64,000 nucleotides of DNA from Parcubacteria group bacterium Licking1014_17 (GTDB taxonomy: Bacteria; Patescibacteriota; Minisyncoccia; 2-02-FULL-40-12; IGHO2-01-FULL-4-A). The first letter of the stretch is position 1; every line of letters begins with the position of its first letter. The stretch spans positions 779 through 64,778 of the forward strand of contig VMGJ01000006.1 in the NCBI GenBank assembly GCA_007376485.1, in the 5' to 3' direction. The notes under the pieces were generated by a model. That model worked only from the letters and a program-made list of their open reading frames with translations, did no database searches and was not told the DNA's origin. The position numbers and the translations under genes are program-made. Below are positions 26,621 to 60,796 of this stretch, in pieces.

Positions 26621-27535
26621 ATGGGTAAAATTAACGAAATAAAATCCGAATTCCTGGAATACATCGAGATTGAGAAGAATCGCTCGCCGAGAACCGTGGC
26701 AAATTACGACCATTATTTGAGCCGCTTCTTTCAGTTCACGAAGCCGGAGTCCATTTCCGACATATCCGAGGACTCAATCAGAAAATTCAGATTGTATCTA
26801 AACCGGCTGGCTGATGAAAGGGGGCAACCGCTGAAAAAAGTCACCCAGAATTACCACGTAATCGCTTTGCGGGCGTTTTTGAAATATCTTACCAAGCGCA
26901 ATATCAAATGCGTGCCGCCGGAGCGAGTTGAGCTGGGCAAACAGGAGGAAAGAGAGGTTACTTTTCTGGACGAAAAAGAACTGGAAAAATTTTTGAAGTC
27001 GCCGGCGGGCGATTCGGTGGCAGCTTTGCGCGACCGGGCGATTCTGGAAACTCTTTTTTCGACCGGCTTGCGCGTTTCGGAGCTGTGTTCTCTGGACAGG
27101 GATGGCATCAATCTTGGCAGGGGAGAGTTTTCGGTCCGCGGCAAGGGCAATAAAATCAGGGTTGTGTTTTTATCGGATACGGCGAAAGAATGCCTGAAGA
27201 CCTACTTGAATAAGCGCATGGATGCCGACCCGGCTCTTTTTATCCGTGTTCCGAAGTCGGGCAAGTTCGAAAAATTTCCGGACCTGCGGCTGACTCCGCG
27301 AAGCATCCAGAGAATAATCACCAAATACGCGATTATATCCGGAATTGTGGGGAAAAAAGTTTCGCCCCACACCCTCCGTCATTCTTTCGCGACCGATTTG
27401 TTGCGAAACGGCGCGGATATCAGGTCTGTGCAGTCGTTGCTTGGGCACGCCTCCGTTACGACGACGCAGATTTACACCCATGTTACCGATAAACAATTGA
27501 GAGAGGTTCACGAGCGGTTCCACAGGAAGAAGTAA
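26621..27535 (+). CDS. xerC: Tyrosine recombinase XerC/XerD
   Basis: 304 aa. C-terminal catalytic HTLRHSFATDLLRNGADIRSVQSLLGHASVTTTQIYTHV with the active-site Tyr. Confidence 0.85.
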   Translation: MGKINEIKSEFLEYIEIEKNRSPRTVANYDHYLSRFFQFTKPESISDISEDSIRKFRLYLNRLADERGQPLKKVTQNYHVIALRAFLKYLTKRNIKCVPPERVELGKQEEREVTFLDEKELEKFLKSPAGDSVAALRDRAILETLFSTGLRVSELCSLDRDGINLGRGEFSVRGKGNKIRVVFLSDTAKECLKTYLNKRMDADPALFIRVPKSGKFEKFPDLRLTPRSIQRIITKYAIISGIVGKKVSPHTLRHSFATDLLRNGADIRSVQSLLGHASVTTTQIYTHVTDKQLREVHERFHRKK

Positions 27536-32695: not shown

Positions 32696-34414
32696 GTGAT
32701 GATTAGGGAAATTATTTCTAAAATTGTAGCTTCAGCCGCCGGCAAGTCCGGGTTTAAGCTTCCGGAAGAAGTTAAAATAACCCCCACCCCGGAAAAAGAT
32801 TTTGGCGATTATTCGACAAATATCGCTTTTATTTTGGCGAAACAAACCGGCAGGCCGTCGGAGGAAATCGCCGGAGAATTAGCTGAGACGATTAATTCAA
32901 TCAACCCGCCGGAATTTGAAAAAGTGGAAACCGCCGGTGGTTATGTGAATTTCTTTTTGAATAATAATTTTATTCAGAAAGAATTTGAGAAGACTACCGC
33001 TGATGAAAATTTCGGTATTGACCGCAAATTTGCCGGCAAAACCGTGATGGTTGAATTCACCGATGCGAATCCATTCAAGATTTTTCACATTGGGCATTTA
33101 ATGTCGAATTCAATTGGCGAAGCCCTTTCTCGGTTATATGAAGTAATTGGCGCGAAGGTGCTACGGGTAAATTGGCAAGGCGATATCGGTGTCCACGTGG
33201 CAAAAACCATTTGGGCGATAGGGACTGGAAAAATAAAAATGTCCGGCGAAGATGACCCGCTTGCGGGGAAATTAACCCAGCTGGGGCAGGCTTATGCCCT
33301 TGGGAACATCAGTTACGAGGATGATCCGGCGGCAAAAGTGGAAATTGATGAAATAAACAAGAAATTATACGAGCAGAGCGATCCAGAGCTCAATAAAATT
33401 TATACCACTGGCCGCCAATGGAGCCTGGATTATTTTGAAACAGTATATGATCGACTCGGGACCAAATTTATCCATTACTTTTTTGAAAGCGAAATGGGGC
33501 CGAAAGGGCTTGAGATGGTGTGGGCTCATCCGGATATTTTTGAGGAAGACAAGGGTGCTATTATTTTTCGCGGCGAGAATTACGGATTGCATACCCGCGT
33601 CTTTATAAGCGCGCAGGGTCTACCTACCTACGAAGCAAAAGAATTGGGCTTAAATCAGGAAAAATTTAATCTTTACCACCCTGATCTGTCCTTGATAGTT
33701 ACCGGTAATGAGATTGTAGAATATTTCAGAGTGCTTTTGAAAGTTATGAGTTTAATAATGCCGGACGTGGCCGAAAAAACACGCCACATTGCTCATGGAA
33801 CTCTACGCCTGCCAACAGGCAAGATGTCTTCGCGAACAGGCACCGTAATTTCAGCTGAAGAACTCATCGAGGACGTGAAAAAGGCGATAATCAGTTTACC
33901 AATAAAAGAGTCGAAGCTAACCGATGAAGAAAAGGGTACCAATGCCGAAGCCATTGCCATAGGAGCGATAAAATATTCCATTCTAAAACAGAGATCAGAA
34001 CAGGATATTATTTTTGATTTTGAAAAATCACTCTCTGTGAGCGGTAACAGCGGACCCTATTTGCAATACACTTTCGCGCGGCTGGCGGGAATTTTGGAAA
34101 AAGCGGGGGAGAATAACGGCGGGGGAGCGAACTATTCGGTTTTGGTTAAGGACGAAGAGCTAGACTTAATGAAGAAGATTTTGAGATTTTCAGATGCGGT
34201 TATGGCTTGTGCTGATGATAATTCCCTAAACCACCTAGCGACATTTTTATACGAGCTTTGTTCGCTGACGAATTATTTTTACGAGAAAGTGCCGGTCAAT
34301 AAGGAAAACGATGCTAAAATCCGCTACGTGCGGCTTGGGCTTATAAAAACGGTCAAAAATATTTTGGGAGCGGGACTAAATATTCTAGGCATCAAAACAC
34401 TGGAGAAAATTTAG
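32696..34414 (+). CDS. argS: Arginine--tRNA ligase
   Basis: 572 aa. HIGH-type motif FHIGHL. C-terminal DALR anticodon-binding domain. Confidence 0.9.
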   Translation: MMIREIISKIVASAAGKSGFKLPEEVKITPTPEKDFGDYSTNIAFILAKQTGRPSEEIAGELAETINSINPPEFEKVETAGGYVNFFLNNNFIQKEFEKTTADENFGIDRKFAGKTVMVEFTDANPFKIFHIGHLMSNSIGEALSRLYEVIGAKVLRVNWQGDIGVHVAKTIWAIGTGKIKMSGEDDPLAGKLTQLGQAYALGNISYEDDPAAKVEIDEINKKLYEQSDPELNKIYTTGRQWSLDYFETVYDRLGTKFIHYFFESEMGPKGLEMVWAHPDIFEEDKGAIIFRGENYGLHTRVFISAQGLPTYEAKELGLNQEKFNLYHPDLSLIVTGNEIVEYFRVLLKVMSLIMPDVAEKTRHIAHGTLRLPTGKMSSRTGTVISAEELIEDVKKAIISLPIKESKLTDEEKGTNAEAIAIGAIKYSILKQRSEQDIIFDFEKSLSVSGNSGPYLQYTFARLAGILEKAGENNGGGANYSVLVKDEELDLMKKILRFSDAVMACADDNSLNHLATFLYELCSLTNYFYEKVPVNKENDAKIRYVRLGLIKTVKNILGAGLNILGIKTLEKI

Positions 34415-34461: not shown

Positions 34462-37400
34462 ATGCCCGAAAATTTTAATTTCGCTGAAAACGAGAAAAAG
34501 ATACTCAAATTCTGGAAAGAACAGAAGATTTTTGAGAAATCAATGGAACAAAGGAAAAAGTCCAAGCCCTTTGTGTTTTTTGAAGGTCCGCCGACGGCAA
34601 ACGGCTTGCCCCACGTGGGGCACTTTATGTCCCGTTCATATAAAGATGTTTTCGGACGCTATAAAACAATGCGCGGGTATTATGTTTTGAGGCGAGCCGG
34701 CTGGGATACCCACGGGTTGCCGGTAGAAATTGAAGTAGAAAAAGGGCTTGGTCTCAAAAATAAAAAAGAGATTGAAGAATATGGGATTGCAAAGTTCAAC
34801 AAAAAAGCCAAAGAGAGCGTATGGAAATACAAATCCGAATGGGAAAGAACTTCGGAAAGGATGGGCATCTGGCTGGATTTTGATAACTACTACGCCACCT
34901 ACAAAAACTCTTATATAGAATCCGTCTGGTGGTTTCTTAAAGAGGCGTGGAATAAGAAACTTCTGTATAAGGGGCACAAGGTTTTGCCTTACTGCACACG
35001 CTGTGGGACATCGCTTTCAAGCCACGAGGTGGCGCAGGGCTACAAAGACGTTACCGAGCCGGCGGTTTATATAAAGTTCAAACTTGAAAAAAAGCAAAAA
35101 ATAAAAGGGTGGAATATTCCCAAAAACACTTGTTTTCTTGCTTGGACGACAACGCCATGGACTTTGCCGGGAAACGTTGCCCTGGCAGTGGGCGAAAAAT
35201 TCAAGTATCTCGTAGTTCGCATTGGCGATGAGTTTTTGATTTTAGCCGAGGGCAGGGAGTCGGTGCTAAAAGGGGAACGCGAGCTGGTGAAAAGTTTTGC
35301 CGGGAAGGACCTGGTCGGTCTTCGATACGAATCTTTATTTAAAATTAAATCCCTATCGACTAAAAAATCACACCGGATTTATCCGGCGGATTTCGTTACC
35401 ACCGAAAACGGCACCGGCATCGTGCACACGGCGGTGATGTACGGCGAGGACGATTACGAACTCGGCAAAAAAGTCGGCTTGCCTATGCACCATACCGTGG
35501 ATTTGCAGGGAAAATTCACCAAAGAAGTAAAGGGACTGGCTGGGCAGTATGTTAAAGATGCCGACAAGGATATTATAGAGACACTCAAAAAAGGGGGACT
35601 GTTATACGGTCAGGAGCCCTATACCCATTCCTATCCGCACTGCTGGCGGTGCAAACTGCCGTTGATTTATTACGCCAAGGATTCCTGGTTTATCCGGATG
35701 TCGTCTCTGCGTAAAGAATTGATTAAAAGAAACGAAACGGTAAACTGGCGACCCGAGCACATTAAAGAAGGGCGTTTCGGAGAGTTTTTGCACGAGGTTA
35801 AAGACTGGGCGTTAAGCCGAGAACGTTATTGGGGGACTCCGTTGCCGGTTTGGCAATGTCTCAAATGCAAAAATTATATTGCCGTAGGGTCAATCGAGGA
35901 TTTGGAAAAATACCGCCCAAGGAAGAAAAATGTTTATTACATTCTTCGCCACGGGCACAGCGAAAAAAACGCCAACGGCGGAAAAGAAGACATTATCAGC
36001 ACCCTGCTTGAATCGGACAAATACCATCTGACCCATAAGGGAGTGGAGCAGGTAAAAAAAGCTATTGAAGAACTGAAAAAGAAAAAGGTCAAGCTGGACG
36101 CGATTTATTGCTCGCCGTTTATCAGGGCGAAAGAGACGGCGGAAATAGTCGGCAATCACTTCGGGATAAAAGCAAAAACAGATAAAAGATTAAGCGAAAG
36201 ATTGCACGGACCGATGTGCGAAGGCAAACCGGAAAGGCTTTGCGAAATGCTGGTGCCGGCGACTCCGGAAAGCAAGCATGCGGGCGGCGAGTCAATCATG
36301 GAGGTCAAGGCAAGGATGTCCCGGTTTCTTAGGGAAATTGATGAAAAACACGAAGGTAAGACAATATTGGTCATCAGCCATGGCGATCCGCTGTGGGCAC
36401 TGACGGCTTTCACCGAGAATATTTCCGAAGATAAAATAATAAGCACGCGGCAGCGCCTGATGCCCGGGACCGGCGAATTGAAAAAAATCAACCTCAAAAA
36501 TTATCCCTACAACGTGGAGGGCGACCTTGATGTTCACCGACCGTTTATTGATGGAGTGGCGCTAAAGTGCCCAAAATGCGGCGGGAAATCCGTAAGAACG
36601 CCGGAAGTCTGTGACTGCTGGCTCGATTCCGGCTGTATGCCTTTCGCCCAGTGGCATTATCCTTTTGAGAATAAAAATTGGATAGACAAACCGAGTGGTT
36701 CGGACAAACAGTATCCGGCTGATTTTATTGTCGAAGCCATTGACCAAACCAGGGGCTGGTTCTACACATTGCTGGCCGTGGCTACTATTCTGGGCCGTCC
36801 CGCTCCGTATAAAAATGTCGGTGTTACCGGGTTCGCCATGGCGAGCGAGGGCAAGAAATTGTCCAAGTCGGAAGGAGCGGGCGAAGGATTCACTAAAATA
36901 ATAGAAGAATACAGCGCGGACGGCTTGCGATGGTATCTTTTTACCGTCAATGATTTAGGTGACAATAAGACGATTACCGCGCAGGATGTCCAGAAGAAGT
37001 TCAGGAATTTTCTTTTGATTTTATTCAATACTCTAAGATTTTTCAGCTTGTATCCCATAAAGGATAAGGCATTGCTGATAAACGAACCGGAACCCCAGGG
37101 GCTTTTGGATAAGTGGCTCCTTGCCCGCCTTAAAAAAACAGTGGCGGAGGCGACAAAACTTCTTGACAGTTATTATCCGACTCCGGCGACGCGGCTGATC
37201 GGGCAGTTCGTAGTTGAGGATTTGTCGAAATGGTGGCTCCGCCTGTCGCGCCAAAGATTCCAAAGGCCCGAGAGCGAACTTTCCCACGTATACGTGAGTT
37301 CATATTTGAGGTATATCCTTTTGGAAATCGCTAAGTTGCTTTCGCCGTTTATCCCTTATTTTACGGAACATATATACCGCGAATTGAATCACGGGCTTAA

Positions 37401-37974
37401 GGTTTCCGTGCCCAGCATACATTTGCTCGACTGGCCCAAGCTGGCTCCGTTTGAGGAAGCAGAAAAATTGGCGCTGGAAGAAATGGAAGATGTCAGGCAT
37501 TACGCGGCTTGTGGGCTGGCTCAGCGCCAGATAAAACAGATAAAAGTCAGACAACCGCTGGCATCTGCGAAGATTAAGCGGGAAAAGCGTTTCGACGCGG
37601 AATTGCAGGATATATTGAGAGCCGAGCTTAACGTGAAAGTAATCGAATACGATCCCGCCCAAGCCGGGGAAGCGGAGATAGACGATAACATCACGGCTGA
37701 ACTGCGCCAGGAGGGCTATGCCCGCGAGCTTGTGCGCAATATCCAGGAAATGCGCAAGGACGCCAAATACCCGCTGGATTACAAAGTCGGGGCGTATTGG
37801 GAAACCGAGAACAAGGAGCTGGCGCTTGCCATCGAAAATCTGCGGGACTTGATTAAAAATGATTCCTTATTGTCCGAAATAAATCGCGGCAACGCCGGTG
37901 CGGGGCATTTTGACGTCGAAAAGAAATTCAATCTGGCGCCAGGCGTAGAAATTTGGCTGGGACTTAAAGCTTAA
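34462..37974 (+). CDS. ileS: Isoleucine--tRNA ligase carrying an inserted histidine-phosphatase-like domain
   Basis: 1170 aa. HVGH motif, CP1 editing domain (TTPWTLP), WALSRERYWG, KLSKS. About 200 aa at residues ~488-690 (nt ~35920..36530) show RHGHSEKN and VISHGDPLWAL motifs, between CLKC and CPKCGG. Confidence 0.9.
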   Translation: MPENFNFAENEKKILKFWKEQKIFEKSMEQRKKSKPFVFFEGPPTANGLPHVGHFMSRSYKDVFGRYKTMRGYYVLRRAGWDTHGLPVEIEVEKGLGLKNKKEIEEYGIAKFNKKAKESVWKYKSEWERTSERMGIWLDFDNYYATYKNSYIESVWWFLKEAWNKKLLYKGHKVLPYCTRCGTSLSSHEVAQGYKDVTEPAVYIKFKLEKKQKIKGWNIPKNTCFLAWTTTPWTLPGNVALAVGEKFKYLVVRIGDEFLILAEGRESVLKGERELVKSFAGKDLVGLRYESLFKIKSLSTKKSHRIYPADFVTTENGTGIVHTAVMYGEDDYELGKKVGLPMHHTVDLQGKFTKEVKGLAGQYVKDADKDIIETLKKGGLLYGQEPYTHSYPHCWRCKLPLIYYAKDSWFIRMSSLRKELIKRNETVNWRPEHIKEGRFGEFLHEVKDWALSRERYWGTPLPVWQCLKCKNYIAVGSIEDLEKYRPRKKNVYYILRHGHSEKNANGGKEDIISTLLESDKYHLTHKGVEQVKKAIEELKKKKVKLDAIYCSPFIRAKETAEIVGNHFGIKAKTDKRLSERLHGPMCEGKPERLCEMLVPATPESKHAGGESIMEVKARMSRFLREIDEKHEGKTILVISHGDPLWALTAFTENISEDKIISTRQRLMPGTGELKKINLKNYPYNVEGDLDVHRPFIDGVALKCPKCGGKSVRTPEVCDCWLDSGCMPFAQWHYPFENKNWIDKPSGSDKQYPADFIVEAIDQTRGWFYTLLAVATILGRPAPYKNVGVTGFAMASEGKKLSKSEGAGEGFTKIIEEYSADGLRWYLFTVNDLGDNKTITAQDVQKKFRNFLLILFNTLRFFSLYPIKDKALLINEPEPQGLLDKWLLARLKKTVAEATKLLDSYYPTPATRLIGQFVVEDLSKWWLRLSRQRFQRPESELSHVYVSSYLRYILLEIAKLLSPFIPYFTEHIYRELNHGLKVSVPSIHLLDWPKLAPFEEAEKLALEEMEDVRHYAACGLAQRQIKQIKVRQPLASAKIKREKRFDAELQDILRAELNVKVIEYDPAQAGEAEIDDNITAELRQEGYARELVRNIQEMRKDAKYPLDYKVGAYWETENKELALAIENLRDLIKNDSLLSEINRGNAGAGHFDVEKKFNLAPGVEIWLGLKA

Positions 37975-37983
37975 TTCTAAAAA

Positions 37984-38505
37984 ATGCGGCCAACTGCCAT
38001 AATTTTGAAAAAAATCCCGAAGGGTGAATACGACGACCTGATTATCTGCTACACAAAACATGAGGGCAAGCAAACCTATCAGGCAAAAGGCGTTAAACGC
38101 CATACGTCCCTGCAGGCGAACCATCTGGATATTTTAAACCTTATAGATTTTTCACTGGTCAGAGGGAACGGCCATCCTATAATAACCAGCGCGAATTGCC
38201 TGGATAGCTTTGGCGGGATCAAGTCATCGCTCAAGAGTTTAGCCGCTTCTTTCGTTGTGGTTGATTATTTCGACAAATTTATCTTTGCCGCCCAGCGGGA
38301 CGATAAGTTATGGGACTTTTTGAATGAAACCCTGCAGGAATACAACCGGTTGAGCGGTGATAATAATACGGATTGGAACCCCGTAATCCAAAAAACCAAG
38401 CATGATTTCATCCGAACGCTTGGATATCACGGCGATACCCTGGCGAGCCATTTAAGCGGCGCGCCTCTGGAATCGTTACGTTTTGTCCAAAAAGTGATAC
38501 AATAA
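37984..38505 (+). CDS. recO: DNA repair protein RecO-like (short form)
   Basis: 173 aa. N-terminal OB-fold pattern similar to RecO. Confidence 0.55.
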   Translation: MRPTAIILKKIPKGEYDDLIICYTKHEGKQTYQAKGVKRHTSLQANHLDILNLIDFSLVRGNGHPIITSANCLDSFGGIKSSLKSLAASFVVVDYFDKFIFAAQRDDKLWDFLNETLQEYNRLSGDNNTDWNPVIQKTKHDFIRTLGYHGDTLASHLSGAPLESLRFVQKVIQ

Positions 38506-38513
38506 AAAAATAA

Positions 38514-40409
38514 ATGAATGACGGTAATTTTACGGTGGAACCCCTTTCGCCGGCGACGGAAGAAAGGGTTCAGCCCGAAGAACAATTTGAAACAATGGTG
38601 TCGCCAAGCCAGAACCCTCCGGTGCAGGTTTCACCCTTGACGGTTGAACCCCAAGCTTCCGTCAAGATACCCTGGCTTAGCGCCTTTCTCACGCCCAGAC
38701 AGCTGAAATACGTAATGTTAGGAGGGTTGGGAATAATTATTTTAGCGGTAGCTTTGTTTTTCATATTCAGAAGCCCGTTTAACGAGACGCGGGTGTCGCT
38801 TAGTATTGAAGCAACTTCGAGTATCGCTTCCGGCCAGGAAGTTACCTATAAGGTCGCATACAAAAACGGCAACAGGGTAACTCTTAAGAATGTTAAGCTG
38901 GCGTTTTTTTACCCGGAAGATTCCGTGCCTCTGAAAGACGGGCAGCCGGCGGCTTTTACCAACGAAACGGTTGATATCGGCGAAATCGGCGGAGGGGGCA
39001 GCAGCGATAAAACCTTTACGGCGATAGTGGTAGGGGATAAAGGCGACGTCCGCACCGCCCGAGCGATTTTGACTTACAGGCCGAGCACCATCACTTCGTA
39101 TCTACAGAAAGAAGTCGTCCAGCCAATCAATGTCATGTCGCTTGAGGTGCCGCTTGCCATAGACGCGCCGCAGAATGCCATCAGCGGCCAGAGCGTCAGA
39201 TATGTCGTCACGATGAATAACGAAGCCGGCAGGGACATTAATTATTTGAGATTGAAAGCGACCTATCCTCGCGGATTCAGGGTGACTTCGTCCAGCCCCC
39301 AAGCGGCAGGCGATAACGACACTTGGGACATCGCGTCCCTGCCCGACGGCAAAAGCGGCAAGATTACCGTCCAGGGAGTTCTTGTCGGCGTGCAGAACGA
39401 AAATAAAACGATTTCCTTCCTATTGCAGAGAAAAATGACGCTTTCCGGCGGCGAGGACTATGTCAATTATGAAAAAAGCGAGGCAACCACCGTATTATCA
39501 CTTCCGCCCTTGAGCGCCCAGATTCTTGTTAATAATTCAGACAACTACACCGCCCATCTCGGAGACCGCCTGCAATACACGGTGATTCTTAAAAACAACT
39601 CCAACTCTACTTTGGAAAGAATAACCCTGACGTCGAAGCTGGAAGGCAATATGTATGATTACACTTCGGTTGACACCACGGGCTTTTTTGACAGCCGCGA
39701 GAAAACAATCAGCTGGAACGCGTCCTCGTTTCCCCAACTTTTGTCTTTGGGACCAAATCAGGAAGCGCGGATAAGCTTCACGGTGGCGCTAAACCGCTCT
39801 TTTGCCGGCAGTGCCAAAGACTCATCCGTAAAAGCCAGTGTGCATTCCGAAACTTCAAGCGTGCCGTCGGGCTACAGCGTGGACAAGATAGTTTCCGATT
39901 CCGATGTGACAACCCGCATAACCACTTCGCCGTCTTTGGATAATAAAGTTTTTGTTTCCGACCCGGTGTTCGGCTCGGGCGGACCAATGCCGCTGAAAGT
40001 TGACGTTAAATCTTTCTTTACAGTTAAACTGTCGCTGGTTAATCCATCCAACGACCTTTCTTCCGCCAAAATCAGAGTTGTCCTTGCGCCGGGCGTAACC
40101 TGGCAGGACAGGGTGCGCGTCAGCGGCAATTTCCCGCCGCCGGTATTTGACCCGATAAGCGGCATCGTCAGCTGGAACTTGGGCATTTTGCCGGGCGGCG
40201 CGGGAACGAAAACGCCGGCCGTTGAAGCTTACTTCCAGATAAGCGTTACCCCATCGGTCAATCAGATTAACCAAACGGTGTTGTTCACCCGCAGCGCGGT
40301 CTTGGAAGGAACGGACAACACTACAAATGAGTTTGTCGCGCGCACGCTGTCCGAATTGCGTTCAAGCAATTTGTCGGATTACAGTGGGAACAGTACGGTA
40401 GCCCAATAA
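38514..40409 (+). CDS. Membrane-anchored surface protein with DUF11-like (conserved repeat domain) repeats
   Basis: 631 aa. N-terminal TM. Repeated G(D/Q)x(V/L)xYx(V/I)xxxN motifs. Confidence 0.55.
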   Translation: MNDGNFTVEPLSPATEERVQPEEQFETMVSPSQNPPVQVSPLTVEPQASVKIPWLSAFLTPRQLKYVMLGGLGIIILAVALFFIFRSPFNETRVSLSIEATSSIASGQEVTYKVAYKNGNRVTLKNVKLAFFYPEDSVPLKDGQPAAFTNETVDIGEIGGGGSSDKTFTAIVVGDKGDVRTARAILTYRPSTITSYLQKEVVQPINVMSLEVPLAIDAPQNAISGQSVRYVVTMNNEAGRDINYLRLKATYPRGFRVTSSSPQAAGDNDTWDIASLPDGKSGKITVQGVLVGVQNENKTISFLLQRKMTLSGGEDYVNYEKSEATTVLSLPPLSAQILVNNSDNYTAHLGDRLQYTVILKNNSNSTLERITLTSKLEGNMYDYTSVDTTGFFDSREKTISWNASSFPQLLSLGPNQEARISFTVALNRSFAGSAKDSSVKASVHSETSSVPSGYSVDKIVSDSDVTTRITTSPSLDNKVFVSDPVFGSGGPMPLKVDVKSFFTVKLSLVNPSNDLSSAKIRVVLAPGVTWQDRVRVSGNFPPPVFDPISGIVSWNLGILPGGAGTKTPAVEAYFQISVTPSVNQINQTVLFTRSAVLEGTDNTTNEFVARTLSELRSSNLSDYSGNSTVAQ

Positions 40410-40416
40410 AATATTT

Positions 40417-41754
40417 ATGGAAAAAGAAAAAAATTTGGAAAAAATCGTCTCATTGTGCAAACGCCGCGGCTTTGTTTTTCCCGGCAGCGAAATATACGGC
40501 GGATTGGCTGGCATTTATGATTATGGGCCGCTAGGCGTGGAGTTGAGTATGAATGTAAAAAACGCTTGGCGTCGGGAGATGTTTCGTCTGCATGAAAATA
40601 TTTTCGAACTGGATAGCAGCATACTTATGCAGAAAAGAGTTTGGCAGGCATCAGGCCATACGTCCGCCGGCTTTACCGATCCTTTGCGGGAATGCAAAAA
40701 ATGCCACCACCGTTTTCGCGCCGACCACCTGACCGAGCAGGGGATTGATAAATGTCCGGATTGCGGCGGCGACCTAACGGAGCCGAAACGATTTAACCTT
40801 CTCGTAGAAACACATTTGGGGCCGGTTCAGGATGACTCTTCTTTGGTGTATCTGCGAGGCGAAACCGCCCAAGGTATTTACGTGAATTACAACAATGTGA
40901 AGATATCTCAAAGTGCTTCACTTCCGTTTGGAATTGGTCAGATTGGCAAAGCCTTCAGAAACGAAATCACTCCCGGGCATTTTATTTACCGAATGCGCGA
41001 GTTTGAACAGATGGAGCAGCAATATTTTATCAAACCATCCGAAGCGGATAAGTATTTTGAACAATGGAAAGAAGAGCGCCTGCACTGGTATTTGGACTTG
41101 GGCATCAAGAAAGAAAATCTGCGTCTCCGCCCGCACGTCACCGGTGAATTGGCCCACTACGCCAAGGCCGCCGTGGATATTGAATATAATTTCCCCTTTG
41201 GCTGGCATGAAATTGAAGGCATTCATAATCGGGGCGATTGGGATCTTTCTCGGCACAGCGAATATTCCGGCCAAGATTTATCGGAAATTGATACTGGAAC
41301 CGGGAAAAGATTTTATCCCTATGTCATTGAAACTTCGGCTGGGGTTGACCGTTTGACATTAGCGTTTATTGTTGATGCCTATGAGGAAGTTATCGGCGGG
41401 CGGACCACCACTACGCAAAGCATAAAAGAAATAGAGGTCGTTTTGAAATTAGACCATCGGCTATCGCCGGTAAAAATCGCCGTTCTGCCTTTATCCAAAA
41501 AAGAGCCGCTGGTGAATATGGCGAAAGATATTGCCAGTAAATTGCGCAAAAACTGGAATGTCCAATATGACGATACTGCCTCTATCGGCAAGCGTTACCG
41601 CCGACAGGATGAAATCGGCACGCCCTTCTGCATATCCGTGGATTTTGAATCCATTGACGACAAAAAAGTTACCGTCCGCGACCGGGATACGATGAAGCAG
41701 GAGAGGATGGAAATAGGGAAATTAGAAATTTATATTGCCGAAAAGCTGAAATGA
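40417..41754 (+). CDS. glyQS: Glycine--tRNA ligase (dimeric class II type)
   Basis: 445 aa. Typical GlyRS N-terminus FVFPGSEIYGGLAGIYDYGPLG and class II motifs. Confidence 0.9.
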   Translation: MEKEKNLEKIVSLCKRRGFVFPGSEIYGGLAGIYDYGPLGVELSMNVKNAWRREMFRLHENIFELDSSILMQKRVWQASGHTSAGFTDPLRECKKCHHRFRADHLTEQGIDKCPDCGGDLTEPKRFNLLVETHLGPVQDDSSLVYLRGETAQGIYVNYNNVKISQSASLPFGIGQIGKAFRNEITPGHFIYRMREFEQMEQQYFIKPSEADKYFEQWKEERLHWYLDLGIKKENLRLRPHVTGELAHYAKAAVDIEYNFPFGWHEIEGIHNRGDWDLSRHSEYSGQDLSEIDTGTGKRFYPYVIETSAGVDRLTLAFIVDAYEEVIGGRTTTTQSIKEIEVVLKLDHRLSPVKIAVLPLSKKEPLVNMAKDIASKLRKNWNVQYDDTASIGKRYRRQDEIGTPFCISVDFESIDDKKVTVRDRDTMKQERMEIGKLEIYIAEKLK

Positions 41755-60722: not shown

Positions 60723-60794
60723 GCCGGAGTAGCTCAATGGCAGAGCAATCGCTTCGTAAGCGATAGGTTGTGAGTTCAAGTCTCACCTCCGGCT
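60723..60794 (+). tRNA. tRNA-Thr (anticodon CGU)
   Basis: GCCGGAG acceptor. D-arm GCTC/GAGC. Anticodon stem ATCGC/GCGAT with loop TTCGTAA. T-arm GTGAG-TTCAAGT-CTCAC. 72 nt. CCA not encoded. Confidence 0.8.
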
Positions 60795-60796
60795 CA

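What the first reader, a model, noticed from the sequence alone, without database searches (positions are those of the whole stretch)
35920..36530. Histidine-phosphatase domain nested inside the zinc-knuckle loop of IleRS
The 1170-aa ileS ORF is contiguous and in frame. Between the conserved CLKC and CPKCGG zinc-knuckle halves, which normally lie before the DxWFDSG segment, sits a ~200-aa insertion. It carries both signature motifs of the histidine phosphatase (PGAM-like) superfamily: LRHGHSEKN (RHG catalytic His) and ILVISHGDPLWAL (second His). A complete catalytic-type domain inserted into an essential aminoacyl-tRNA synthetase is unusual. Possible roles include a moonlighting phosphatase, a tRNA 2',3'-cyclic or 3'-phosphate phosphatase, or a decayed insertion.
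Basis: partly seen in the sequence, partly recalled or inferred. Interest (0 to 1): 0.6.

Follow-up and report, generated by a model that had tools for sequence, protein, structure and literature searches.

The report
Phosphatase domain nested inside IleRS
An essential protein-synthesis enzyme (isoleucyl-tRNA synthetase) of an uncultured Parcubacteria bacterium carries a complete, apparently active phosphatase inside one of its surface loops; dozens of related species share this, and in other relatives the same phosphatase is a separate gene directly in front of the synthetase gene, which suggests a partnership I found no description of.

Summary
ORF 34462-37974 is an intact type-2 IleRS of 1170 aa. 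Residues 484-688 (nt 35911-36525) form a complete branch-1 histidine phosphatase domain (PF00300, E = 4.5e-29; AlphaFold pLDDT 91). It sits in the loop of the zinc-binding CP3 subdomain, between CLKC and CPKC.

It is not an assembly artefact. Forty-four other species-level Patescibacteria genomes carry it at the same point, as do about 100 metagenomic protein clusters. The catalytic residues are chemically invariant (Arg496, His497, Arg555, Glu/Asp579, His640), although the insert is only about 35% identical between carriers.

New here: the closest free-standing homologues align end to end with the insert. Four of them are encoded between argS and an insert-less ileS, in the same gene order as the window. 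So split and nested forms of one partnership both exist. Some IleRS relatives carry two to four phosphatase copies, or NUDIX or GNAT domains.

The substrate is unknown. The closest solved structures are small-molecule phosphatases (PhoE, PspA, GpgP). Public records name these proteins only as IleRS, and I found no paper describing the architecture.

Verdict: a real, conserved, probably bifunctional enzyme; a new variant of known kinds; moderately high interest.

The parts
34462..37974 (+). ileS: type-2 isoleucyl-tRNA synthetase with nested phosphatase, 1170 aa (NCBI TSC91098.1)
   Evidence: ORF. TIGR00392 scores 830.5 bits (cutoff 621.4). Best solved relatives are T. thermophilus IleRS 1ILE (E = 6e-234) and P. 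megaterium IleRS2 8C8U. The exact sequence is in NCBI, named only 'Isoleucine--tRNA ligase'.
34609..34623 (+). PHVGH (residues 50-54): canonical class-I HIGH signature
   Evidence: Motif scan.
35836..36609 (+). CP3 subdomain (residues ~459-716) including the insert. It follows the CP2-CP3 linker DWALSRERYWG (448-458).
   Evidence: Alignment to 1ILE. Domain definitions and the zinc motif of Tt CP3 come from PMC7191050. The CP2-CP3 linker lines the tRNA 3'-end/reveromycin pocket according to PMC7955072.
35857..35868 (+). CLKC (466-469): first half of the CP3 zinc knuckle
   Evidence: Aligns with Tt IleRS VCQAC.
35911..36525 (+). Nested histidine phosphatase domain (residues 484-688), branch 1, about 205 aa
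   Evidence: PF00300 E = 4.5e-29 in the whole protein and 1.7e-30 for the insert alone. AlphaFold2 pLDDT 91.4, pTM 0.89. Foldseek matches GpgP, PspA, PhoE, TIGAR and CobC at E ~1e-11, TM ~0.7. Free-standing homologues align to it end to end.
35947..35955 (+). Arg496-His497-Gly498: RHG motif; His497 is the predicted phospho-accepting nucleophile
   Evidence: R 45/45, H 45/45, G 44/45 among carriers.
36124..36126 (+). Arg555: second phosphate-binding arginine (SPFIRA)
   Evidence: 45/45.
36196..36198 (+). Glu579: predicted general acid (RLSE); it aligns with the Glu of RLRE in PhoE (Glu83 is my numbering from memory)
   Evidence: Alignment to PhoE 1H2E. E in 41/45 carriers and D in the other 4.
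36379..36381 (+). His640: second catalytic histidine (VISHGDP)
   Evidence: 43/43 sequences that reach this column; the 2 missing are cut by contig ends.
36568..36579 (+). CPKC (703-706): second half of the CP3 zinc knuckle
   Evidence: Aligns with Tt IleRS ACACGG.
36856..36870 (+). KLSKS (799-803): class-I KMSKS signature
   Evidence: Motif scan. Present in 38/39 full-length carriers.
32696..34414 (+). argS (context). In relatives with the split form, the free-standing phosphatase gene lies between argS and ileS; here that gap is only 47 bp.
   Evidence: Pfam hits. Synteny in L082, L085, L087 and L092.
37984..41754 (+). Downstream context: recO (N-domain only), a DUF11/CLIPPER-like protein and a class-II aaRS. 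The order is the same as in the split-form loci.
   Evidence: One search compared.

Best explanation
The gene encodes a bifunctional protein. It is a working type-2 IleRS whose CP3 subdomain loop carries a whole, catalytically competent branch-1 histidine phosphatase of the compact ~200-aa PhoE/PspA/GpgP type.

Shown:
- The IleRS signatures are intact: HVGH, KLSKS, the editing-site motifs and both four-Cys zinc sites.
- The insert is a complete His_Phos_1 fold.
- Its catalytic set is chemically invariant across 45 carriers, although the insert is only ~35% identical between them.
- The free-standing homologues closest to the insert match it from their first to their last residue. In four metagenomic contigs representing distinct phosphatase proteins they are encoded directly between argS and an insert-less ileS, in the same gene order as the window.

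Inferred:
- The nested form arose when the neighbouring phosphatase gene moved about 1.4 kb into the CP3 loop of ileS.
- The module hydrolyses phosphomonoesters by the standard family mechanism. Arg496, Arg555 and His640 hold the phosphate, His497 takes it as a phospho-histidine intermediate, and Glu579 protonates the leaving group.
- It is held in 1:1 stoichiometry on CP3, which directly follows in sequence the CP2-CP3 linker that lines the tRNA 3'-end pocket; no 3D placement was modelled.

The substrate is not determined. My split is:
- about 45%: a small-molecule phosphomonoester, with the link to IleRS serving co-production or tethering;
- about 35%: a substrate tied to aminoacylation (tRNA acceptor-end phosphate or a nucleotide by-product);
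- about 15%: a phosphoprotein;
- about 5%: other.
For: Domain identity. Delimitation and site.

Conservation: 44 of the 80 fetched species-level genome loci have the insert at the same point. About 100 of the best 150 representatives in an exhaustive search are long proteins with the domain internal, and all 8 that I scanned are IleRS.

Catalytic residues: R496 45/45, H497 45/45, R555 45/45, E/D579 45/45, H640 43/43.

The insert evolves faster than the host (35% against 54% mean identity) but co-varies with it (Spearman rho = 0.44).

IleRS motifs in carriers: KMSKS 38/39, TTxPWT 39/39, GTGxVH 37/39. HxGH or the known functional GxHH variant is present in 33 of the 35 carriers the motif scan could classify; the other 2 read PHYGS.

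Split form: argS-phosphatase-ileS in L082/83/84, L085, L087 and L092, with a 1-base overlap up to a 6-bp spacer between the phosphatase and ileS genes. tblastn splits the window's IleRS into the permuted order [insert][N-part][C-part]. End-to-end alignment of free-standing proteins with the insert.
Against: No activity has been measured. Catalytic competence rests on residue conservation and a predicted fold.

The nearest solved structures are all small-molecule phosphatases at only 20-27% identity, so they do not fix a substrate.

No curated equivalog cutoff is reached: dPGM_arch 92.6/225, PspA 64.8/350, CobC 61.6/162.9, SixA 51.4/74.5.

Two insert-less IleRS (L044, L058) are nested among carriers, with no phosphatase gene within 3 kb. 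The module is therefore dispensable, or supplied from elsewhere, in some lineages.

The direction of evolution (split to nested, or the reverse) is not resolved. The domain tree is saturated and carriers are not one clade in a neighbour-joining (NJ) tree.

The position relative to the tRNA pocket comes from published structures of other IleRS, not from a model of this protein.
Confidence: 0.78

Rival explanations
1. Aminoacylation-coupled repair. The phosphatase removes a blocking phosphate from the 2'/3' end of tRNA-Ile, for example after nuclease damage or after toxin-mediated (pyro)phosphorylation of the CCA end. It acts right at the enzyme that needs a free A76 hydroxyl.
For: The gene is persistently coupled to class-I aaRS genes, both as an adjacent gene and as a nested domain.

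Its site in CP3 follows the linker that lines the tRNA 3'-end pocket.

One relative (P0108) combines NUDIX and His_Phos in one IleRS. In principle that would allow 3'-PP -> 3'-P -> 3'-OH.

tRNA CCA-end pyrophosphorylation by toxSAS toxins is an established way to block charging (10.1101/2021.04.30.441581 and PMC11559606).

Two of three free-standing, ileS-adjacent copies are very basic, about +24 net charge.
Against: To my knowledge, no histidine phosphatase is known to act on RNA ends.

Structural neighbours are small-molecule enzymes.

The embedded domains are near neutral, median pI 6.5, and the third adjacent copy carries only +2.8.

There is no obvious reason for the link to be specific to IleRS. 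PADLOC gives no defence-system link.
Confidence: 0.2
2. Regulatory protein phosphatase. The domain removes phosphate from IleRS itself or from a partner protein, for example to reverse inhibitory phosphorylation of the kind HipA-family kinases impose on other aaRS.
For: The domain is a compact histidine phosphatase. From my own knowledge, compact members of this superfamily such as SixA, Sts-1 and PGAM5 act on phosphoproteins. SixA is among the weaker profile hits (51.4 bits, below its 74.5 cutoff). A tethered phosphatase would act in cis.
Against: The SixA cutoff is not met. The best structural matches are metabolite phosphatases that have a cap region. No kinase lies in the conserved neighbourhood. 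HipA-type targeting of IleRS is not documented, to my knowledge.
Confidence: 0.12
3. Inactive, merely tolerated or structural insertion: a decayed domain, or a selfish or intein-like element.
For: The insert evolves faster than the host body, 35% against 54% identity. Two nested lineages lack it. L011 carries a shortened copy. IleRS of these bacteria accepts many other inserts, including NUDIX, GNAT and IS200-like domains.
Against: All five catalytic positions are chemically invariant in 45 carriers at ~35% overall identity. The fold is predicted with pLDDT 91. There is no Hint or endonuclease domain. The junctions lack intein splice residues: no conserved Cys/Ser/Thr at either junction.
Confidence: 0.04
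4. Assembly chimera or frameshift artefact joining a phosphatase gene into ileS.
For: The source is a metagenome-assembled genome. In relatives a phosphatase gene really does lie next to ileS.
Against: The reading frame is continuous. Both flanks of the insert are CP3 sequence in frame. The same junctions occur in 44 independent genome assemblies and about 100 metagenomic clusters from different studies. There is no G+C discontinuity.
Confidence: 0.01

Closest known systems
Type-2 IleRS with a zinc-binding CP3 (Thermus thermophilus IleRS, PDB 1ILE; Priestia megaterium IleRS2, 8C8U)
   Same: Same enzyme family and domain order. Both four-Cys zinc sites are present, along with HxGH, KMSKS and the editing motifs. 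Sequence matches are E = 6e-234 and 1.6e-229. CP3 contains the CxxC...CxxC knuckle (PMC7191050).
   Different: About 205 extra residues forming an independent enzyme fold replace a ~9-residue stretch of the CP3 loop, Tt 478-488.
Compact branch-1 histidine phosphatases: PhoE/YhfR (1H2E, 1EBB), phosphoserine phosphatase PspA (4IJ5), glucosyl-3-phosphoglycerate phosphatase Rv2419c (4PZ9), CobC, TIGAR
   Same: Same fold, size (~200 aa) and catalytic Arg-His-Arg-Glu-His set. Foldseek E ~1e-11, TM ~0.7. phmmer E = 3e-8 to PspA.
   Different: Only 20-27% identity. No equivalog cutoff is reached. The known enzymes are free-standing; this one is nested in, or encoded next to, an aaRS. Its substrate is unknown.
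IleRS carrying an N-acetyltransferase domain (NCBIfam NF040702, ileS_w_GNAT)
   Same: A curated precedent for an IleRS that carries an extra small-molecule-modifying enzyme domain. A GNAT also occurs together with the phosphatase in relative P0127.
   Different: Different accessory domain at a different site. The profile offset places the extra sequence N-terminal to residue ~298, not in CP3. This protein scores 296 bits against a cutoff of 1999.
Bifunctional RNase H / acid phosphatase (NF005567, PRK07238; Rv2228c type)
   Same: A branch-1 histidine phosphatase domain fused to a nucleic-acid enzyme. The insert matches its phosphatase half (60.8 bits).
   Different: That is an end-to-end fusion, not a nested insertion. 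The partner enzyme is different, and the cutoff (326) is not met.
Rosetta-stone (fused versus split) gene pairs
   Same: The same two proteins occur as adjacent, apparently translationally coupled genes in some genomes and as one polypeptide in others.
   Different: The fused form is a domain-in-loop insertion that permutes the gene order to [N-IleRS][phosphatase][C-IleRS]. It is not a head-to-tail fusion.

Membership tests
Histidine phosphatase superfamily, branch 1 (Pfam PF00300 His_Phos_1) | Profile match above the curated gathering score | tested here: met
   101.9 bits in the whole protein and 106.6 bits for the insert alone, against a cutoff of 21.7.
Histidine phosphatase superfamily, branch 1 (Pfam PF00300 His_Phos_1) | RHG motif with the nucleophilic His, plus the second Arg, the acidic proton donor and the second His | tested here: met
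   R496-H497-G498, R555, E579 and H640 are present in the window. They are 45/45, 45/45, 44/45, 45/45, 45/45 (E or D) and 43/43 in carriers. E579 aligns with the Glu of RLRE in PhoE.
Histidine phosphatase superfamily, branch 1 (Pfam PF00300 His_Phos_1) | Alpha/beta fold of the superfamily | tested here: met
   AlphaFold2 pLDDT 91.4, pTM 0.89. The top 50 Foldseek PDB hits are all family members, TM ~0.7. This is a predicted structure, not a solved one.
Histidine phosphatase superfamily, branch 1 (Pfam PF00300 His_Phos_1) | Phosphomonoesterase or mutase activity through a phospho-histidine intermediate | not testable with these tools
   Requires an enzyme assay.
Specific histidine-phosphatase equivalogs (archaeal dPGM NF038349, PspA NF045917, CobC TIGR03162, SixA TIGR00249) | Score above the curated equivalog cutoff | tested here: not met
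   92.6/225, 64.8/350, 61.6/162.9 and 51.4/74.5 bits for the insert alone. The domain is not assigned to any of these.
Isoleucyl-tRNA synthetase (TIGR00392 ileS) | Score above the equivalog cutoff | tested here: met
   830.5 bits against 621.4.
Isoleucyl-tRNA synthetase (TIGR00392 ileS) | Class-I HIGH and KMSKS signatures and CP1 editing-site motifs | tested here: met
   PHVGH at 50, KLSKS at 799, TTTPWTL at 229, GTGIVH at 317.
Isoleucyl-tRNA synthetase (TIGR00392 ileS) | Charges tRNA-Ile with isoleucine | not testable with these tools
   Requires an aminoacylation assay. It is the only ileS in the 64-kb window, but the rest of the genome was not available.
Type-2 IleRS (IleRS2) | Closest to IleRS2/archaeal-eukaryal-type enzymes; type-2 C-terminal region rather than the IleRS1 zinc-binding domain | tested here: met
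   Best PDB matches are Tt IleRS and PmIleRS2 (E < 1e-229), against IleRS1 of S. aureus at 9.5e-94. C-terminal DUF5915 match. Type definitions come from 10.64898/2026.02.03.703510.
Acquired mupirocin-resistance IleRS (MupA NF000257, MupB NF000258) | Score above the exception-model cutoff | tested here: not met
   744 and 772 bits against a cutoff of 1900.
IleRS with GNAT domain (NF040702) | Score above the cutoff; GNAT domain present | tested here: not met
   296 bits against 1999. No acetyltransferase Pfam hit in this protein.
Intein or other self-splicing insertion | Hint domain; Cys/Ser/Thr at the N-junction and His-Asn plus Cys/Ser/Thr at the C-junction | tested here: not met
   No Hint, intein or endonuclease Pfam hit. 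The junctions read ...EKYRPRKKNVYY and ...NYPYNVEGDLDVHRP, with no conserved nucleophiles in 40 carriers.

The most novel reading that the evidence does not exclude
The phosphatase is a dedicated partner of IleRS, as a separate subunit-like protein in some Patescibacteria and built into CP3 in others. It acts on a phosphorylated form of an IleRS ligand, most attractively a 2'/3'-phosphate or, together with the NUDIX domain seen in relatives, a pyrophosphate blocking the tRNA acceptor end. That would make it the first aminoacyl-tRNA synthetase with a built-in tRNA-end repair activity, and the first histidine phosphatase acting on RNA ends.
Probability: 0.2. Interest if true: 0.85.

Novelty: new variant of a known kind. 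Interest (0 to 1): 0.6.

Why it matters
Aminoacyl-tRNA synthetases of bacteria are usually thought of as fixed in architecture. Catalytic add-on domains are regarded mainly as a eukaryotic feature.

Here an essential class-I synthetase has carried a second, apparently active enzyme inside a catalytic-domain loop across a whole radiation of ultra-small bacteria. The existence of split and nested forms of the same pair argues that phosphatase and synthetase have been kept together by selection.

If the phosphatase acts on a ligand of the synthetase, this would be a new type of quality-control or repair function in translation. If it acts on a metabolite, it is a clear natural example of domain-in-loop fusion as a route to gene economy in minimal genomes. 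It would also show that CP3 of IleRS is a permissive site for protein engineering.

Either way, several thousand public proteins now labelled only 'IleRS' or 'class I tRNA ligase family protein' may be under-annotated.

Tried and rejected
1. Linker as a fossil of the IleRS N-terminus. A tandem duplication of [phosphatase + 5' ileS] followed by one deletion would predict that the C-terminal linker (..LP[RYH]N..GELD.HRP) derives from the IleRS N-terminus (F[ND][LF]P[EK][IL]EE..L.FW). The match is not convincing. The linker looks like the native CP3 loop instead (Tt KPLPEPFDPHRPYVD; L044 DKFLPDPHRPFVD). For the same reason, the shared linker is only weak evidence for a single insertion event.

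2. Phylogeny of the phosphatase domain (225 domains, neighbour-joining), to decide between single and multiple insertions and the direction of change. Distances are above 1 and embedded and free-standing copies interleave. Some 'short' hits are fragments of fused proteins. Unresolved.

3. Monophyly of carriers on an IleRS-body NJ tree. Not supported (0/100 bootstraps). There is a main group with two insert-less members nested inside it, plus a second divergent group with a PHYGS signature. Distance trees at this divergence are not decisive.

4. Charge as a hint of RNA binding. Inconsistent: embedded domains have median pI 6.5, and adjacent free-standing copies carry +24, +25 and +3.

5. Defence-system profiles (PADLOC): no meaningful hit.

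6. A free-standing paralogue near ileS in carriers, or elsewhere in the 64-kb window: none.

7. Literature searches for the fusion: five searches and one targeted read found nothing.

8. Intein or selfish-element reading: rejected. There is no Hint domain and there are no splice residues.

9. A full-length AlphaFold model was not run, because the tool returns no coordinates or inter-domain error, so it could not place the phosphatase relative to the tRNA pocket.
Full report
OBSERVATION

The window holds a continuous 1170-codon ORF at 34462-37974 on the + strand. It passes the curated IleRS model: TIGR00392 scores 830.5 bits against a cutoff of 621.4. Its closest solved relatives are the type-2 enzymes of Thermus thermophilus (1ILE, E = 6e-234) and Priestia megaterium (8C8U).

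Pfam places a His_Phos_1 domain (PF00300) at residues 493-659 with E = 4.5e-29, between the two halves of the class-I catalytic-domain match. In the alignment to 1ILE, query residues 483 and 689 correspond to Tt residues 478 and 488. About 205 residues (484-688, nt 35911-36525) therefore replace about 9.

The flanks are the two halves of a zinc knuckle, CLKC at 466-469 and CPKC at 703-706. There is no G+C break at the insert.

WHERE IN THE ENZYME

Published IleRS structures define the segment between the DWxxSRxRYWG linker and the second half of the Rossmann fold as the CP3 subdomain. In T. thermophilus it carries a zinc-binding motif, and its topology differs between IleRS structures (PMC7191050). 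The CP2-CP3 linker directly upstream lines the pocket that holds the tRNA 3' end and the inhibitor reveromycin A (PMC7955072).

The phosphatase sits in the CP3 loop after the helix ...GSIEDLEKY and before ...LDVHRPFID. The rest of CP3 is left intact.

IS THE HOST ENZYME INTACT?

Yes, as far as sequence shows. PHVGH, KLSKS, the editing-site motifs TTTPWTL and GTGIVH, and both four-Cys sites are present.

IS THE GUEST ENZYME INTACT?

Yes. The insert alone scores 106.6 bits on PF00300. It folds in AlphaFold2 with mean pLDDT 91.4 and pTM 0.89. It superposes on compact family members at Foldseek E ~1e-11 and TM ~0.7: GpgP Rv2419c, PspA, PhoE, CobC, TIGAR and the riboflavin-pathway HFP.

All catalytic positions are there: Arg496, His497, Arg555, Glu579 (which aligns with the Glu of RLRE in PhoE) and His640. 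The insert reaches no curated equivalog cutoff, whether dPGM, PspA, CobC or SixA, so the substrate cannot be read from homology.

NOT AN ARTEFACT, AND NOT UNIQUE

A scan of one genome per species returned 80 IleRS loci. In 44 of them, all Patescibacteria, the CP3 anchors are about 225 residues apart and the intervening sequence matches the insert. The record titles name them Yanofsky-, Wolfe-, Lipton-, Vogel- and Magasanikbacteria, Paceibacterota and 'Parcubacteria group'. Ordinary IleRS has 22-35 residues between the anchors (59 in one, L053).

An exhaustive HMMER search of 1.84 billion representatives gave 6019 hits. About 100 of the best 150 are long proteins with the domain internal at roughly 480-720. 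All eight that I scanned are IleRS.

The window's own protein is NCBI TSC91098.1 from 'Parcubacteria group bacterium Licking1014_17'. It and other fused proteins are named only 'isoleucine--tRNA ligase' or 'class I tRNA ligase family protein'.

SELECTION

Among 40 full-length carriers the IleRS body averages 54% identity and the insert 35%. The two sets of pairwise identities are correlated (Spearman rho = 0.44), as expected for co-inheritance.

Despite that divergence, the catalytic set is essentially invariant. Arg496, His497 and Arg555 are 45/45. Position 579 is Glu in 41 and Asp in 4. His640 is present in all 43 sequences that reach that column. This pattern fits an active enzyme, not a decayed passenger.

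THE KEY NEW RESULT: A SPLIT FORM

The closest free-standing relatives (184-199 aa, 34-41% identical to the insert, which is as close as other inserts are) align with it from their initiator Met to their last residue.

For four of them (P0009, P0005, P0011, P0004) the gene lies directly between argS and an insert-less ileS of 931-953 aa (in L092 the ileS is cut by the contig end). Between the phosphatase and ileS genes there is anything from a 1-base overlap to a 6-bp spacer. They are followed by recO, a DUF11/CLIPPER protein and a class-II aaRS. This is the window's own gene order.

tblastn of the window's IleRS against these loci returns three pieces in permuted order: [490-677] upstream, then [1-490] and [665-1136]. 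P0007 follows argS but is not followed by ileS on its short contig. P0002 has one gene between it and a 943-aa protein that I could not verify. More distant homologues (P0010, P0013, P0014, P0016, P0021) lie in unrelated contexts.

The phosphatase-synthetase association therefore exists as adjacent genes and as a nested fusion. In the window the argS-ileS spacer is only 47 bp, which fits relocation rather than duplication.

EVOLUTIONARY HISTORY (TENTATIVE)

On a neighbour-joining tree of the IleRS body, carriers form a large group with two insert-less sequences (L044, L058) nested inside it. A second, divergent group (L032-L036, L069) has a PHYGS signature. The split-form IleRS fall on three different deep branches.

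Both carrier groups have the insert at the same point in CP3. The shared C-terminal linker resembles the native CP3 loop, so it does not prove a single event. The domain tree is saturated.

One ancient nesting followed by losses and transfers, or two nestings from an ancestral adjacent-gene state, are both possible.

MECHANISM

What is shown: two complete enzymes in one chain, both under purifying selection, and a conserved partnership.

What is inferred: the phosphatase uses the standard family chemistry, with a phospho-His497 intermediate and Glu579 as the acid. It is held on CP3, which directly follows in sequence the linker that lines the acceptor-end pocket; no 3D placement was modelled.

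The substrate is open.
- The nearest sequence and structure relatives favour a small phosphomonoester. I put this at about 45%.
- The persistent coupling to class-I aaRS genes, the site, and the co-occurrence with NUDIX in P0108 keep an aminoacylation-linked substrate alive, at about 35%. Within that, removal of a tRNA acceptor-end phosphate is the most attractive version. CCA-end pyrophosphorylation by toxSAS toxins is a known way to block charging (10.1101/2021.04.30.441581; PMC11559606).
- A protein-phosphatase role is possible, at about 15%.
- Charge analysis and defence-system profiles did not discriminate between these.

COMPARISON WITH WHAT IS KNOWN

Both parts are members of known families; see the membership table. 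Precedents for enzyme add-ons exist: NCBIfam NF040702 (IleRS with GNAT) and the RNase H/acid-phosphatase fusion NF005567.

What differs here:
- a nested, loop-inserted catalytic domain in CP3;
- its breadth across a whole lineage;
- the split/nested pair;
- multi-copy variants.

Five literature searches and a read of a 2026 survey of IleRS architecture found no description of it. The sequences themselves have been public for years. I rate it a new variant of a known kind.

VERDICT

Interest is 0.6. An aaRS specialist would be surprised by a conserved second active site inside IleRS, and the split/nested pair gives a direct experimental handle. However, the function remains unknown, and a mundane metabolic role is at least as likely as an aminoacylation-linked one.

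Noticed in passing
Metagenomic relatives P0153, P0156, P0071, P0111, P0141, P0135, P0100: Some IleRS carry two histidine phosphatase domains, and P0153 carries four. In P0111 the two copies are in tandem. In P0156, P0071 and P0141 the second copy sits about 150-190 residues downstream of the first; in P0156 this is after the KMSKS region and just before the anticodon-binding domain (869-1047 of 1419 aa). The copies within one protein are not each other's nearest relatives in most cases.
   Followed up: partly
P0108 (1382 aa) and P0127 (1066 aa): IleRS relatives that carry further enzyme domains in addition to the phosphatase. P0108 has a NUDIX domain at 226-343, which by analogy with the window's numbering lies in the editing-domain region. 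P0127 has an IS200-like Y1 transposase domain at 340-461 and a C-terminal GNAT. IleRS of Patescibacteria looks like a hotspot for in-frame domain acquisition.
   Followed up: partly
Loci L003-L031 and others; window 34609-34623: 27 of the 35 carriers that could be classified (and 13 of 16 non-carriers) have the non-canonical GxHH signature (GRPGIHH) in place of HxGH. In IleRS2 this variant confers mupirocin hyper-resistance (PMC10485003). The window keeps the canonical HVGH. The second carrier group has PHYGS.
   Followed up: partly
L034, L069, L035, L036: Members of the second carrier group have lost the zinc-knuckle cysteines on both sides (for example WKHEKTGAV... and ...LVAEDGARLVR) but keep the phosphatase. 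The zinc site is therefore not needed to hold the insert.
   Followed up: no
L011: The insert is shortened by about 43 residues (186 against ~229 between anchors). The C-terminal helices of the phosphatase are lost while RHG and the SH motif are kept. This may be a copy that is decaying.
   Followed up: no
L044 and L058: Two IleRS nested among carriers on the NJ tree have a normal short CP3 loop and no phosphatase gene within 3 kb. This is either clean secondary loss or an artefact of the tree.
   Followed up: partly
L094 1323-2893 and 4001-4537: A more distant homologue lies near a cluster containing a second His_Phos gene, a NUDIX gene and an RsmB/F-type RNA methyltransferase. This is another His_Phos + NUDIX co-occurrence, here next to an RNA-modifying enzyme.
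   Followed up: no
window 37984-38505: The recO ORF is only 173 aa and matches RecO_N alone. The syntenic recO genes in L082, L085 and L087 are 227-242 aa and have both RecO_N and RecO_C. It may be truncated or divergent at the C-terminus.
   Followed up: no
L082 9401-9697, L085 4614-4982, L087 4269-5399: Split-form loci have an extra ORF with no Pfam match (98, 122 and 376 aa) between ileS and recO. The window has only a 9-bp spacer between ileS and recO.
   Followed up: no
L067 CP3 region; L081, L062, L072: L067 has 108-112 residues between the CP3 anchors, but most of them are X, from masked N in the record, so it cannot be judged. L081 (1167 aa), L062 (1158 aa) and L072 (1123 aa) are long IleRS in which no match to this insert was found; for L081 a short CP3 was seen directly. 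Their extra length lies elsewhere and was not examined.
   Followed up: no
window 35750-36500: AT skew rises to 0.29-0.32 over the insert, against about 0.1-0.17 in the rest of ileS, without a G+C change. I attribute this, without checking, to a Lys/Glu-rich composition (AAA/GAA codons).
   Followed up: no
window 26621-27535 and 60723-60795: A tyrosine recombinase (Phage_integrase with SAM-like N-domain, XerC/D-like) and the window's single tRNA gene, tRNA-Thr(CGT). Neither is connected to the finding.
   Followed up: no
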